From the NCBI GenBank assembly GCA_944393375.1, contig CALXZX010000005.1, forward strand, positions 1,293 through 65,292: 64,000 nt of DNA, read 5' to 3'. This DNA is from an uncultured Clostridia bacterium. Lineage in GTDB: Bacteria > Bacillota > Clostridia > TANB77 > CAG-508. A program made the position numbers and the translations under genes. The notes under the pieces are model-generated. The model was not told the origin of the DNA. It did not search any database and saw only the letters and a list, made by a program, of their open reading frames with translations. Shown here in pieces: positions 18,020 through 53,121 of this stretch (within the stretch, counting starts at the first letter, position 1; each line of letters starts with the position of its first letter).

Positions 18020-18190
18020 ATGGCATATAAAATAACAGATAAATGTATATCATGTGGAGCTTGTGCTGCTGAATGTCCAGTTCAATGTATATCACAAGGA
18101 GATGATAAATTCGTAATTGATCAATCTGCTTGTATAAGCTGTGGAACTTGCGCAGGTGTTTGCCCAGTAGAAGCACCAGAAGAAGAATAA
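18020..18190 (+). CDS. 2[4Fe-4S] ferredoxin (56 aa, absent from ORF track)
   Basis: Hand translation MAYKITDKCISCGACAAECPV...ACISCGTCAGVCPVEAPEEE has two CxxCxxCxxxCP motifs; AAGGAGGTG SD. Confidence 0.97.
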   Translation: MAYKITDKCISCGACAAECPVQCISQGDDKFVIDQSACISCGTCAGVCPVEAPEEE

Positions 18191-18194
18191 GGAT

Positions 18195-18232
18195 AAAAGG
18201 GGATTTTGGGGACGGACTCAAATTTCCCTTTT
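18195..18232 (+). repeat. REP-like palindrome, family A copy 1
   Basis: AAAAGGGGATTTTGGGGACGGACTCAAATTTCCCTTTT; self-hairpin followed by a T-run. Confidence 0.9.
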
Positions 18233-18253
18233 TTATTAAAAGGAGGAGTAAAA

Positions 18254-19009
18254 ATACCCAGAAAAGAAAGAACACTACATATATCATCATATTATCATAT
18301 AATGATACAGGGAATAAATAAATTAAATATTTTTAAAACGAATATAGAAAAAAATACATATCTAAAATATTTGAATGAGGAAAAGAAAAAATATGATATT
18401 AAAATTTTAGCGTATGTGATAATGGATAATCATATGCATTTGTTAATATATGATGAAAAAGAAAAAAATGTTTCAAAATGGATGCAAATTGTTAATACGA
18501 AATATGCCAAATTTTATAATAAAGAGCATGATAGAGTGGGGTATGTATATAGAGACAGGTTTAAAAGTAAGCCGATTTGGGATAGAACATATTTATATAA
18601 TGTACTTGCATATATACATTTCAATCCCATAGAAGCAGGAATAAGTAAGGAGTTAAGTCAATATACCTTTTCTTCATATAATGATTATGTATATAATCGA
18701 AAATCTAGAGAAGAAGTTATATTATTATTTAGTAATGAAGATTATCAATCTTTATATAATTTAATTCATGAAAAATATTATAAGAAAATGTTATTAAAAT
18801 CGAATAGGTCTCCAGAAAATATATTACAAAATTATTTGGATGGTAAAACAGTAAAAGAAATAAAAAGAAACAAAGAATTAATTGCTAAAATAGTTATAGA
18901 AATAAAAAGGGAATATAACTTAAGAGAGTATCAAATAGCCAAAATTTTGTCAATTGGAAAAAACAGAATAAATCAACTAAAACGAGAAGGATTTATAAAA
19001 GAAGATTAA
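18254..19009 (+). mobile_element. REP-associated tyrosine transposase (RAYT; IS200-like Y1 HUH), apparent ATA start
   Basis: (I)PRKER N-terminus, YYHIMIQGINK, AYVIMDNHMHLL (HUH), YIHFNPIEAG, YTFSSY; flanked by inverted family A repeats; no tnpB. Confidence 0.88.
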
Positions 19010-19050
19010 ACAAGTGGATTACCAAATACAAATCTAGAAATTAAAAGACC

Positions 19051-19086
19051 AAAAAGGGAAAAATGAGTCCGTCCCCAAAATCCCTT
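19051..19086 (-). repeat. REP-like palindrome, family A copy 2 (inverted relative to copy 1)
   Basis: AAAAAGGGAAAAATGAGTCCGTCCCCAAAATCCCTT. Confidence 0.9.
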
Positions 19087-19118
19087 AAAATTAAATATTA
19101 GTAAAAGGAGAAATAGAA

Positions 19119-19854: not shown

Positions 19855-19894
19855 AAAAAGGGAATTTTGAGTCCGTCCCCAAAATCCCTTTTTT
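19855..19894 (-). repeat. REP-like palindrome, family A copy 3 (immediately after porB stop)
   Basis: AAAAAGGGAATTTTGAGTCCGTCCCCAAAATCCCTTTTTT. Confidence 0.9.
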
Positions 19895-19895
19895 A

Positions 19896-50453: not shown

Positions 50454-50460
50454 AACAAAG

Positions 50461-50497
50461 AAAAGGGATTTTGAGGACGGACTCATATTTCCCTTTT
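50461..50497 (+). repeat. REP-like palindrome, family A copy 4
   Basis: AAAAGGGATTTTGAGGACGGACTCATATTTCCCTTTT, 7 nt after the secG stop. Confidence 0.9.
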
Positions 50498-50512
50498 TTT
50501 GAATTTTATACA

Positions 50513-50661
50513 TTTGGGACATTTGGGGACGTTTCCGTTTGGACATTTTTATTTGAACTTATATGCCTTATTTTTGATAGATAACATATAACAATAACAA
50601 ATTTAATATTATATACATTTATATATATGTGTCCAAACGAAAACACCACCAAATGTCTCAA
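50513..50661. repeat. family B inverted doublet (one arm degenerate)
   Basis: TTTGGGACATTTGGGGACGTTTCCGTTTGGACA (50513-45) and TGTCCAAACGAAAACACCACCAAATGTCTCAA (50630-61). Confidence 0.8.
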
Positions 50662-52795: not shown

Positions 52796-52798
52796 GAT

Positions 52799-53096
52799 TT
52801 GGGACAATTGGGGACGTTTCCATTTGGACATCTTTTAAAATCTAAATTAATAAAAATAAAAAGATAGTGATTCAAAAAAATTATTACATTCCTCGGCTAA
52901 CATTACATCATAAAGAAAAGCTAAAGGTATCTAATAGGAGAATCTCAAAGTAAATTTGAGATTCTCCTATTAGATACCTTAATTTTTTCTAATATGATTT
53001 CATTCACATTCGTCATTTCATAATTTTTTTAATCACTATCTTTTTGAAATTCTATTTGTAAAAATGTCCAAATGGAAACGTCCCCAATTGTCCCAA
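52799..53096. repeat. 298-bp nested palindrome with perfect 32-bp family B ends
   Basis: 52799-52830 / 53065-53096 perfect inverted repeat; 52858-52872 / 53031-53045 perfect 15 bp; 52924-52949 / 52955-52980 perfect 26-bp hairpin. Confidence 0.93.
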
Positions 53097-53121
53097 GTGT
53101 CTCAAAATCTTTCAATGAGCA

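What the first reader, a model, noticed from the sequence alone, without database searches (positions are those of the whole stretch)
18195..19086. REPtron-like locus: RAYT transposase bracketed by inverted 36-38 bp palindromic repeats
A Y1/HUH transposase (NHMH, YIHFNP, YTFSSY; no tnpB) sits between two inverted copies of a hairpin-forming repeat with a GGGGACGGACTC core. This is the REPtron architecture known from Proteobacteria (E. coli, Pseudomonas, Stenotrophomonas). To my knowledge it is much less characterised in Clostridia. Here the REP has no GTAG-type foot that I could see, and the protein has an extra C-terminal HTH-like tail. Dispersed copies elsewhere in the window imply past or present activity.
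Basis: partly seen in the sequence, partly recalled or inferred. Interest (0 to 1): 0.75.

Follow-up and report, generated by a model that had tools for sequence, protein, structure and literature searches.

The report
Clostridial RAYT-type transposase with its repeats
A single-copy, domesticated tyrosine (HUH) transposase gene sits between two inverted copies of a short hairpin repeat that is scattered about a hundred times through the genome of an uncultured chicken-gut Clostridia bacterium. It belongs to an already described class (TIRYT / group 1 RAYT), so it is a clean new example, not a new kind of system.

Summary
A 251-aa Y1/HUH protein (18254-19009) lies between inverted copies of a ~37-41 nt repeat (18194-18235 and 19051-19087). 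Two further copies lie at 19855-19895 and 50460-50500.

The REPtron reading holds, but the protein is of the TIRYT type (Quentin subclass 2.1, which corresponds to Bertels group 1 RAYT), not a GTAG-REP RAYT. It matches 12 main-group published TIRYT sequences at 65-100 bits, against 30-42 bits for classical RAYTs. It has the Y-x3-NP and SSY motifs and a C-terminal helix-turn-helix. Its repeat core GGGGACGG fits 7 of 8 positions of the published TIR motif GGGGWSAS.

The gene is single-copy and under purifying selection (dN/dS 0.12-0.20). It sits at the same site (ferredoxin-gene-POR) in relatives down to 44% identity, each with its own flanking repeat. The closest relative lacks the whole unit.

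The repeat is a real hairpin with covarying stems. It is extragenic and 80-175 times deeper than its flanks in four metagenomes. In related genomes it forms inward-facing doublets (32 versus 0).

The start codon appears to be a conserved ATA.

Verdict: a new member of a known kind, of moderate interest. No group 1 enzyme was found tested on a substrate in the papers searched.

The parts
18194..18235 (+). REP-A copy 1, the left arm of the inverted pair. It starts 4 nt after the ferredoxin stop codon. Its sequence is ATAAAAGGGGATTTTGGGGACGGACTCAAATTTCCCTTTTTT.
   Evidence: Folds as a hairpin at -6.9 kcal/mol, z -2.4.
18241..18248 (+). Shine-Dalgarno sequence (AGGAGGAG, containing the GGAGG core at 18242-18246) 5 nt upstream of the ATA codon.
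   Evidence: Conserved in all four species of the clade.
18254..19009 (+). TIRYT / group 1 RAYT gene, 251 aa. The inferred start codon is ATA at 18254 and the stop is TAA at 19007-19009. Gene callers start it at the ATG at 18302, which cuts into strand beta-1.
18287..18691 (+). Y1/HUH catalytic core, residues 12-146. It holds HUH = H60-M-H62, the catalytic Y120 within YIHFNP, and FSSY at 139-142.
   Evidence: Pfam Y1_Tnp covers residues 12-122. The AF2 model has pLDDT above 90 here. Foldseek top hit is 4ER8, E 6e-7.
18872..18985 (+). C-terminal three-helix helix-turn-helix, residues 207-244.
   Evidence: AF2 helices at 207-221, 225-232 and 236-244, pLDDT about 87-90. HTH_17, HTH_7, HTH_22, HTH_8, HTH_23 and HTH_28 hits in 8-18 of 48 family members. 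The alignment to TIRYT hch_1378 runs to residue 238.
19051..19087 (-). REP-A copy 2, the right arm of the inverted pair. It carries the commonest (master) sequence variant.
   Evidence: Depth rises 82-175 times exactly over 19051-19087. This copy is absent from the orthologous locus L077.
19855..19895 (-). REP-A copy 3, between the converging TPK and POR-beta genes. It is terminator-like.
   Evidence: (z -4.2). Conserved at this position in L077, L114, L118 and L121.
50460..50500 (+). REP-A copy 4, with one mismatch in the core (GAGGACGGACTC). It lies just after a stop codon.
   Evidence: z -4.2.
50513..50550 (+). REP-B copy. This is a second repeat family that shares GGGGACG: TTTGGGACATTTGGGGACGTTTCCGTTTGGACATTTTT. 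It does not form a hairpin. It is related to the finding but is a separate family.
52798..52832 (+). REP-B copy, the left arm of an inverted doublet of about 300 bp between converging genes.
   Evidence: Homologous element in L052.
53064..53097 (-). REP-B copy, the right arm of the same doublet.

Best explanation
This is a TIRtron/REPtron: a domesticated, single-copy HUH-tyrosine (Y1) transposase of the TIRYT class (corresponding to subclass 2.1 TnpA_REP and group 1 RAYT) together with its cognate repeat.

Shown here:
- The protein has an intact HUH and Tyr core, a helical linker and a C-terminal HTH.
- The gene is single-copy, under purifying selection, and held at one chromosomal site across a deep clade.
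- It is flanked by inward-facing copies of a repeat, REP-A. REP-A is a hairpin with a covarying stem and an invariant 16-nt apex, TTTGGGGACGGACTCA.
- REP-A is extragenic, present on the order of 100 copies, and in related genomes forms doublets in the same inward orientation as the gene's own flanks.

Inferred from the biochemistry of groups 2 and 3 TnpA_REP and of IS608 (PMC3333891, PMC8266576):
- On single-stranded DNA at the replication fork the hairpin extrudes.
- The protein binds it. Recognition would use the conserved GGGGACG apex in place of a 5' GTAG foot, with the HTH possibly adding affinity.
- Y120 cuts nearby, forming a 5'-phosphotyrosine link.
- Strand transfer copies or moves REP singlets and doublets in trans. 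The gene itself no longer moves.

Also inferred:
- Expression is kept very low by an ATA start codon and by the REP hairpin with a T-run just upstream.
- REPs placed after stop codons, with a stem flanked by A and T runs, probably also act as bidirectional terminators or mRNA stabilisers.
For: Class of the protein:
- BLASTP against the published RAYT/TIRYT alignment ranks 12 main-group TIRYTs (65-100 bits, E 6e-16 to 6e-29, aligned from residue 1) above all 6 GTAG-REP RAYTs tested (30-42 bits).
- NCBIfam REP_Tyr_transpos scores 64 bits against 27 for IS200.
- The Foldseek top hit is 4ER8.
- H60, H62, Y120, N124 and P125 are invariant in 48 homologues.

Single copy and fixed site:
- The unitig carrying the gene has the same depth as its flanks: 21.4 against 21.2-22.5 in X1, and likewise in X2, X3 and X5.
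- Relatives at 85, 75, 70, 49, 46, 45 and 44% identity all sit directly after the same ferredoxin gene, with holB and PSP1 upstream wherever the contig reaches that far.
- Identity of the gene falls broadly in step with that of its neighbours.
- P0032 and P0079 each showed a single gene context in all the places returned (24 contigs read for each).
- dN/dS is 0.12-0.20.

Link between repeat and gene:
- Nearly every homologue examined has flanking inverted repeats, and almost all contain GGGGACG facing inward. Of the two exceptions, one (L137) has inverted flanks with a different core; the other (L138) carries GGGGACG only as two tandem copies upstream, and no flanking inverted repeat was found.

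Hairpin:
- 75.4% of cells are paired against 66.0% in shuffles (0 of 500 shuffles reach it) and at most 59.5% when the partner columns are slid.
- Pair 12-38 reads GC 86, UA 21, CG 9.

Abundance and arrangement:
- The REP core is 82-175 times deeper than its flanks in four metagenomes.
- At least 18 MAG species carry it.
- Doublets are 32 '+-' against 0 '-+'. 84% of REPs lie outside long ORFs that cover 88% of the DNA.

Loss as a unit:
- In L114, the closest relative, homology breaks at about 18192 and about 19090, the outer edges of the two REPs.
Against: - No biochemical or population evidence of movement was obtained. The presence and absence differences seen are between species, and the empty site holds 85 nt of unrelated sequence rather than a clean joint.
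- The commonest REP variant folds weakly on its own.
- The closest relative keeps REPs without the gene at this locus.
- The depth ratio may be inflated by co-resident species that share the repeat.
- The NCBIfam score is below the equivalog cut-off (64 against 80).
- Covariation counts sequences, not independent events.
Confidence: 0.75

Rival explanations
1. It is an ordinary autonomous IS200/IS605-family insertion sequence that carries only tnpA, and the flanking repeats are its ends.
For: The Y1_Tnp domain is present. IS608 and ISDra2 TnpA structures are the next-best structural matches. Many homologues sit on contigs of about 0.9-1.3 kb that end in the repeats, as a multi-copy IS would.
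Against: - Depth shows a single copy.
- The chromosomal site is the same in relatives from 44 to 86% identity.
- The IS200 NCBIfam model scores 27 bits against a cut-off of 55.
- The ends are inverted copies of one hairpin, not same-strand left and right ends.
- The repeat is about 100 times more abundant than the gene. This also explains why contigs break at the repeats.
- Relatives are rare on plasmids: 18 of 72,556 records.
Confidence: 0.05
2. The repeats are simply a lineage-specific family of intrinsic terminators, and the transposase-like gene merely lies between two of them without acting on them.
For: All four copies follow stop codons. The stem is flanked by A and T runs. Copy 3 passes the terminator scan. 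The closest relative keeps the repeats without the gene at this locus.
Against: - Divergent homologues at this and other loci are each bracketed by their own inverted repeat sharing GGGGACG.
- A terminator needs no invariant 16-nt apex.
- The strict 32:0 orientation of doublets, the tandem arrays and the conserved elements of about 270 bp bounded by REPs point to a mobile unit.
- The commonest variant is a poor hairpin.
Confidence: 0.1
3. The protein has been co-opted as a sequence-specific DNA-binding factor, through its HTH, that uses the repeats as binding sites for genome structuring or regulation, and it no longer catalyses repeat movement.
For: The gene is single-copy, vertically inherited and under strong purifying selection, including the C-terminal domain (dN/dS 0.16-0.30). 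The literature regards group 1 RAYTs as co-opted genes without REPINs (bioRxiv 10.1101/2021.07.10.451892).
Against: The HUH histidines and the catalytic tyrosine are invariant in 48 homologues, which argues that catalysis is retained. The repeat family is large, diversified and organised in oriented doublets. This rival overlaps with the best explanation and is not exclusive of it.
Confidence: 0.1

Closest known systems
TIRYT / TIRtron (Di Nocera et al. 2013, PMC3733652), which corresponds to TnpA_REP subclass 2.1 (Quentin et al. 2018, PMC6006769) and to group 1 RAYT (Bertels et al. 2017, PMC5581495)
   Same: - The protein scores best against the published TIRYT sequences.
- It shares the MPRxxR N-terminus, the xMxNHxHLL HUH context, Y-x3-NP, the SSY motif and a C-terminal HTH.
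- It is single-copy.
- It is flanked by inverted repeats with a GGGGWSAS-like motif: GGGGACGG here, and GGGGTCAG in the Sporomusa relative.
- The repeats are also dispersed as singles and dimers, as reported for S. maltophilia TIRs.
- Bertels reports the group in Clostridia, and a Desulforudis TIRYT (dau 2153) is in the 2013 alignment.
   Different: - Here the repeat is a clear hairpin with covarying stems, and the conserved motif lies in the apex. Quentin et al. found no REP-like structures next to subclass 2.1 genes.
- Abundance is on the order of 100 copies, against about 12 for the 16-mers flanking group 1 genes in Bertels et al.
- Position 7 of the motif is G, not A.
- The start codon is ATA.
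- The HTH is the short type. No Bac_DnaA_C hit appeared among the top-listed Pfam families.
E. coli REPtron: TnpA_REP (YafM, PDB 4ER8) with REP/BIME, group 2 (PMC3333891, PMC3479197, PMC8266576)
   Same: It has the same architecture: a single-copy gene between inverted REPs. It is the best structural match (E 6e-7, TM 0.66 on the target). The repeats are extragenic hairpins at high copy.
   Different: There is no GTAG foot. The E. coli protein has 165 aa and no HTH. Sequence similarity is weak (32 bits; PDB phmmer E 0.019).
Pseudomonas REPIN-RAYT systems, group 3 (PMC3116915)
   Same: Inverted REP doublets have a fixed orientation and preferred spacings. There is a master sequence with variants. 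The gene is vertically inherited at a fixed extragenic site, and it has been lost in one lineage while the repeats persist.
   Different: The RAYT group is different. The doublet spacings (about 38, 70-93, 270-277 and 445 nt) include long structured spacers. Inside the window, REP-A forms no short-spaced doublet. No evidence of movement is available.
IS200/IS605 TnpA (IS608, ISDra2)
   Same: It has the same Y1 HUH fold and, presumably, the same single-strand chemistry.
   Different: IS200/IS605 elements are multi-copy and autonomous, with asymmetric left and right ends and a short protein. The membership tests failed (see below).
CGTC-tagged REPs (PMC3733652)
   Same: The reverse complement of the core, GAGTCCGTCCCC, contains CGTC. 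CGTC REPs have no known transposase.
   Different: In those REPs CGTC is an unpaired tag at the foot of an 8-9 bp stem with a 4-5 nt loop. Here it lies in the apex. This is a resemblance only.

Membership tests
Class 2 Y1 HUH proteins (TnpA_REP / RAYT in the broad sense) | Y1_Tnp fold with an HUH motif and a catalytic tyrosine | tested here: met
   Pfam E 3.5e-11. H60, H62 and Y120 are invariant. AF2 pLDDT 90 and Foldseek hits to 4ER8 and IS608.
Class 2 Y1 HUH proteins (TnpA_REP / RAYT in the broad sense) | Class 2 signature Y-x3-NP (PMC6006769) | tested here: met
   YIHFNP. Y120, N124 and P125 are invariant in 48 sequences.
Class 2 Y1 HUH proteins (TnpA_REP / RAYT in the broad sense) | Low copy number, chromosomal, fixed site | tested here: met
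   Depth equals that of the flanks. Synteny is kept in seven relatives.
Class 2 Y1 HUH proteins (TnpA_REP / RAYT in the broad sense) | NCBIfam REP_Tyr_transpos equivalog cut-off (80 bits) | tested here: not met
   64.3 bits. It is still the best model, well above IS200.
Class 2 Y1 HUH proteins (TnpA_REP / RAYT in the broad sense) | Cleavage and strand transfer on the cognate single-stranded repeat | not testable with these tools
   Needs purified protein.
TIRYT / subclass 2.1 / group 1 RAYT | Closer in sequence to reference TIRYTs than to GTAG-REP RAYTs | tested here: met
   12 main-group TIRYTs at 65-100 bits against 6 RAYTs at 30-42 bits.
TIRYT / subclass 2.1 / group 1 RAYT | C-terminal helix-turn-helix extension | tested here: met
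   Three helices at 207-244. HTH_23 and HTH_28, among other HTH profiles, hit family members.
TIRYT / subclass 2.1 / group 1 RAYT | Flanking inverted repeats with the motif GGGGWSAS | tested here: inconclusive
   GGGGACGG fits 7 of 8 positions. The Sporomusa relative has GGGGTCAG, 8 of 8. The Acetoanaerobium relative has TAGGGACGG.
GTAG-REP RAYT (groups 2 and 3) | Conserved GTAG tetranucleotide at the 5' foot of the hairpin | tested here: not met
   No conserved GTAG in the 122 aligned repeats. The columns 5' of the stem are variable.
REPIN | Two REPs in inverted orientation with a short spacer, forming a population | tested here: met
   32 inward-facing pairs within 600 nt in related genomes, against 0 outward-facing. 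In the window itself only the gene-flanking pair and the REP-B doublet at 52798/53064 are of this form.
IS200/IS605 | Several near-identical copies, autonomous element | tested here: not met
   Single copy by depth. One context in all the places returned for each of P0032 and P0079 (24 contigs read for each).
IS200/IS605 | NCBIfam transpos_IS200 cut-off (55 bits) | tested here: not met
   27.4 bits.
CGTC-tagged REP | Unpaired CGTC at one end of an 8-9 bp stem with a 4-5 nt loop | tested here: not met
   CGTC lies in the apex, and the stem and loop dimensions differ.

The most novel reading that the evidence does not exclude
This may be the first well-resolved REPIN-like population driven by a group 1 (TIRYT) enzyme, and in a Gram-positive lineage. 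The hairpin repeat would be recognised through an invariant apical block (GGGGACGGACTC) instead of a GTAG foot. It has been kept with its single-copy gene at one locus across a family-level clade, and the enzyme is throttled by a conserved ATA start codon. If so, group 1 RAYTs would not merely be co-opted genes without repeats, as currently held, and the substrate rules of this untested group could be read directly from the covariation.
Probability: 0.4. Interest if true: 0.55.

Novelty: new member of a known kind. Interest (0 to 1): 0.38.

Why it matters
Among the papers found in the searched library, biochemistry and structures were reported only for groups 2 and 3 TnpA_REP (E. coli, Stenotrophomonas, Marinomonas). 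The largest group (subclass 2.1 / group 1 / TIRYT) has no defined substrate there. Published surveys found no REP-like hairpins next to its genes and regard it as co-opted.

This lineage offers a group 1 enzyme with an unambiguous, abundant, structurally constrained repeat. Natural covariation shows that the stem is free to change and the apex is fixed, and this predicts what the protein reads.

The locus also extends oriented REP doublets to an uncultured, AT-rich gut Clostridia clade. It also gives a cultured stand-in, Acetoanaerobium noterae DSL2, which has a perfect 25-nt TIR at 14 places in its record.

In practical terms, the repeat breaks short-read assemblies of these MAGs.

Tried and rejected
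- **Rfam, whole window:** only a tRNA was found, and nothing on the repeats.
- **PDB sequence search:** only a weak hit to 4ER8 (E 0.019). The structural search was needed.
- **PHROGs:** weak hits only.
- **Plasmid collection:** few and distant relatives.
- **Genome-collection scan:** It therefore gives lower bounds, not copy numbers.
- **Joints in the contig lay-down:** examples are 18189>19213 and 18238>19855. Each rests on one contig with 27-30 nt on the shorter side, and unitigs break at the repeat. I did not read them as excision events.
- **Profile search with the 48-sequence alignment:** it listed only the close family of about 250 aa, and no named or DnaA_C-bearing relatives.
- **REP-B as a hairpin:** rejected (z about 0).
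- **TTG inside the left REP (18206) as the start codon:** rejected. It is out of frame in L077, and L118 has an in-frame stop upstream.
- **CGTC-REP membership:** rejected (see the membership test).
- **Supplementary sequences of Bertels 2017:** not held. The TIRYT alignment of Di Nocera 2013 was used instead.
Full report
**1. What is in the sequence**

Between the stop codon of a small 2x[4Fe-4S] ferredoxin gene (18188-18190) and the start of a thiamine pyrophosphokinase (TPK) gene (19120) lies an ORF bracketed by an inverted repeat. The arms are 18200-18233 and 19051-19084: 34 nt, 94% complementary, 817 nt apart.

The core GGGGACGGACTC occurs four times in the 64-kb window with at most one mismatch: 18208 (+), 19065 (-), 19869 (-) and 50473 (+). 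Shuffles gave none. All four copies lie just after stop codons. I call this repeat REP-A.

The window has 27-32% G+C. It comes from an uncultured Clostridia bacterium of the chicken gut: 20 public metagenome runs, most of them labelled chicken gut, hold at least half of this region's sampled 31-letter words.

**2. The protein**

- *Domain and motifs.* The translation from 18254 to 19009 (251 aa) matches Pfam Y1_Tnp (E 3.5e-11). It scores 64 bits on NCBIfam REP_Tyr_transpos, below the equivalog cut-off of 80. It scores only 27 bits on transpos_IS200, whose cut-off is 55.
- *Conservation.* In an alignment of 48 homologues the invariant residues include N59, H60, H62 (HUH), Y120, N124 and P125. 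These give Y-x3-NP, the class 2 signature defined in PMC6006769. S140, S141 and Y142 are nearly invariant.
- *Structure.* An AlphaFold2 model is confident (pLDDT 90.3, pTM 0.74). It shows the Y1 beta-alpha core (residues 13-127), a helical linker and a terminal three-helix bundle at 207-244. Foldseek against the PDB ranks E. coli TnpA_REP bound to a REP hairpin (4ER8) first (E 6e-7, TM 0.66 on the target). IS608, ISDra2 and IS200 TnpA follow.
- *C-terminal domain.* Family members hit HTH_17, HTH_7, HTH_22, HTH_8, HTH_23 and HTH_28 in the C-terminal part (8-18 of 48 members, best E 3e-6).

**3. Which known class**

The literature describes exactly this combination:
- Di Nocera et al. (PMC3733652) named RAYT-like proteins flanked by terminal inverted repeats 'TIRYTs', and their loci 'TIRtrons'. 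Many of the TIRs share the motif GGGGWSAS, and some form moderately abundant dispersed families arranged as dimers.
- Quentin et al. (PMC6006769) equate these with their subclass 2.1. These are the longest Y1 proteins and carry a C-terminal HTH (Bac_DnaA_C, HTH_23 or HTH_28). They map 291 of 292 of Bertels' group 1 RAYTs to subclass 2.1. They state that no REP-like structures were found next to subclass 2.1 genes.
- Bertels et al. [quoted passage not shown]

I took the published RAYT/TIRYT alignment and compared the window protein with it by BLASTP. Twelve main-group TIRYTs scored 65-100 bits (E 6e-16 to 6e-29). They aligned from residue 1, and for hch_1378 the alignment ran to residue 238. 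Six GTAG-REP RAYTs, including E. coli b228, scored 30-42 bits. The protein is therefore a TIRYT. The repeat core GGGGACGG fits 7 of 8 positions of GGGGWSAS.

**4. Single copy, fixed locus, purifying selection**

- *Copy number.* In four chicken-gut metagenomes the unitig that carries the gene runs from 18205 to 19080, from REP core to REP core. Its depth equals that of the neighbouring single-copy DNA. In X1 it is 21.4 against 21.2-22.5, and the result is alike in X2, X3 and X5.
- *Synteny.* Relatives at 85% (L118), 75% (L077), 70% (L121), 45% (L137) and 44% (L124) identity all sit at holB-PSP1-ferredoxin-[gene]-(TPK)-POR. The relatives at 49% (L143) and 46% (L140) identity also follow the ferredoxin gene directly; the short contigs that carry them do not reach holB.
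- *Co-divergence.* Identity of the gene falls broadly in step with that of the neighbouring genes. holB goes 78-80%, then 58-61%, then 55%.
- *More distant family members.* P0032 and P0079 each showed one gene context in all the places returned (24 contigs read for each).
- *Selection.* dN/dS among four species is 0.12-0.20.
- *Plasmids.* Relatives are almost absent: 18 of 72,556 records.

**5. Gene and repeat go together**

Nearly every homologue examined is bracketed by inverted repeats, and almost all carry GGGGACG pointing inward on both sides:

| Locus | Flanking repeat |
|---|---|
| Window clade | REP-A |
| L140 | AGAGGGATTAGGGGGACGCATCT..AAATCCCTCT |
| L143 | ..GGGGGACGGGTCT.. |
| L124 | AATAGGGGACGTCC..CCCTATT |
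| L127 | ACTTrGGGACGTTC |
| L132 | GGGGACGGrGCAAAAA |

L137 has inverted flanks with a different core: AGAGGGAAAAAGGGTCCAGGACAAAAATTCCCTCT, as a doublet upstream and a single copy downstream. L138 is the exception: it has two tandem GGGGACGGAG copies upstream of the gene, none downstream within 260 nt, and no flanking inverted repeat.

Two cultured Bacillota show the same design:
- Acetoanaerobium noterae has a 273-aa protein and a perfect 25-nt TIR, AATCATTAGGGACGGTTCTTTTTGA, found at 14 places in the 2.63-Mb record.
- Sporomusa termitida has a 296-aa protein and the TIR TTTGGGGTCAGGCC.

**6. The repeat family**

It still returned REP-A in at least 18 uncultured Clostridia/Bacillota MAG species. 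The other rows were chance matches in unrelated phyla.
- *Hairpin and covariation.* An ungapped alignment of 122 copies has an invariant or nearly invariant block, TTTGGGGACGGACTCA, and variable arms. The arms stay complementary while their sequence changes. The stem types seen are GGGA/TCCC, CGGGA/TCCCG, GGTG/CACC, GTAC/GTAC, GACAC/GTGTC and AATG/CATT.
  - For the proposed hairpin, 75.4% of cells pair, against 66.0 +/- 0.6% in shuffles (0 of 500 reach it) and at most 59.5% when the partner columns are slid.
  - Pair 12-38 reads GC 86, UA 21, CG 9, with 5 unpaired.
  - These counts are of sequences, not independent events, but at least five stem types are involved.
- *Fold of single copies.* The commonest variant (..CTCATTTTTCCC..) pairs only in the outer 9 bp and folds weakly alone (z -0.12). 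Copies 3 and 4 fold well (z -4.2).
- *Abundance.* Depth over 19051-19087 is 82-175 times that of the flanks in four metagenomes, with 28-43 different contigs laid per run. Together with 4 copies in 64 kb, this suggests on the order of 100 copies per genome. Co-resident species that share the repeat may inflate the ratio.
- *Doublets.* In 562 kb of REP-bearing loci, pairs within 600 nt are 32 '+-', 0 '-+', 5 '--' and 2 '++'. The '+-' form has the cores facing inward, as around the gene. Spacings cluster at about 38, 70-93, 270-277 and 445 nt.
- *Position.* 84% of copies lie outside long ORFs that cover 88% of the DNA.
- *Known RNA families.* No Rfam family matches.

**7. Empty and variant sites**

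- L114 (MAG CAWVJB) is the closest relative by its neighbouring genes: holB 91%, PSP1 96%, POR 97-98%. It has ferredoxin, then 85 nt, then TPK, with no gene and no REP. Homology with the window breaks at about 18192 and resumes at about 19090. These are the outer edges of the two REPs.
- The 85 nt are unrelated sequence with their own hairpin, so this is a replacement and not a clean excision joint.
- All deeper relatives carry the gene at this site, so the parsimonious reading is loss of the whole REP-gene-REP unit in that lineage.
- That MAG still carries REP-A, including a 273-nt doublet and the copy after TPK.
- L077 lacks the REP between the gene and TPK, so its inverted pair encloses both genes.
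- L109 has an insertion of about 1 kb relative to window position 44520/44521. The insertion begins with a REP-A copy.

**8. Start codon**

More distant relatives begin MPRxxR with an ATG. In the window and in three other species of its clade the same position reads ATA, 5-7 nt after AAAGGAGG. Three facts point to ATA as the start:
- No canonical start codon lies between the SD and the first ATG, 16 codons downstream.
- L118 has an in-frame stop upstream of the ATA.
- L077 has no ATG until codon 32 or so, which would remove strand beta-1.

The 16 codons have dN/dS of 0.19-0.28 in five of six pairs, so they are translated. Initiation at ATA, which implies very low expression, is the simplest reading. 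This is an inference.

**9. Mechanism and rivals**

The best explanation is a domesticated TIRYT that acts in trans on REP-A hairpins in single-stranded DNA. It would recognise the fixed apex, and it no longer moves itself. Oriented doublets look like internally deleted copies of the REP-gene-REP unit.

Catalysis, strand specificity and the role of the HTH are inferred from groups 2 and 3 TnpA_REP and from IS608 (PMC3333891, PMC8266576). No paper found in the searched library reports a group 1 enzyme tested on a substrate.

The rivals are treated in their own section with the evidence for and against. They are an ordinary IS200-type element, plain terminators, and a DNA-binding factor that no longer moves the repeats.

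**10. Verdict**

The class is already described, including in Clostridia, so this is a new member of a known kind. Three points add something:
- A clear hairpin REP with the conserved motif in its apex, at about 100 copies, next to a group 1 enzyme. Published surveys did not find such structures for this group.
- Long residence at one locus, with repeat and gene diverging together.
- A conserved ATA start codon.

Noticed in passing
window 18254-18256 (also L118, L121, L077): The transposase gene appears to start with ATA where more distant relatives have ATG. A perfect Shine-Dalgarno sequence lies upstream in all four species of the clade. Gene callers therefore truncate the protein (235 or 222 aa) or extend it into the repeat (267 aa).
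   Followed up: yes
window 50513-50550 (+), 52798-52832 (+), 53064-53097 (-): This is a second repeat family, REP-B (TTGGGACAwTTGGGGACGTTTCCrTTTGGACAT). It also contains GGGGACG but does not form a hairpin. Two copies form an inverted doublet of about 300 bp around a perfect palindrome at about 52925-52980. Its core resembles the TIR of the P0032 homologue (L127), so the genome may hold a second TIRYT outside the window.
   Followed up: partly
L009 175-462, L014 1231-1521, L020 7534-7821, L040 3195-3486, L101 9-297; larger forms at L049 3132-3593 and L111 99-566: In several related species, inward-facing REP-A pairs 270-277 bp apart enclose a conserved, internally palindromic sequence (AAAATATAGAATATAAA...GCGTATCTAAATTTGA...AGAATTTCTATGAAAATTTAGCTTATACAAAAT...TTTATATTCTATATTTT). 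This is a MITE-like element. Versions of about 450 bp carry a nested insertion. I did not check whether the window holds a copy.
   Followed up: partly
L109 4901-5961 versus window 44520/44521: A related MAG has about 1 kb inserted at this point. The insertion starts with a REP-A copy, followed by degenerate REP-like repeats (TTTTGAGGACAGAT..) and a small gene that looks XRE-like/HTH by eye (not run against any domain library).
   Followed up: no
L120 1-940; X1 contig 18205-19080: Short-read unitigs that carry the gene begin and end exactly in the REP cores. Many homologues in the protein database sit on contigs of 0.9-1.3 kb. The repeat systematically fragments assemblies of these genomes.
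   Followed up: partly
L137 2280-2364: At the same locus in a 45%-identical relative the flanking repeat has a different core (GGGTCCAGGAC). Upstream of the gene it is already a tight inverted doublet, with arms 3 nt apart and 97% complementary.
   Followed up: partly
window 1-64000: GC skew is positive in every 4-kb bin except 20-24 kb, where the POR genes lie on the minus strand. The window lies on one replichore with strong gene-strand bias. The four REP-A copies show no strand preference (+, -, -, +).
   Followed up: no
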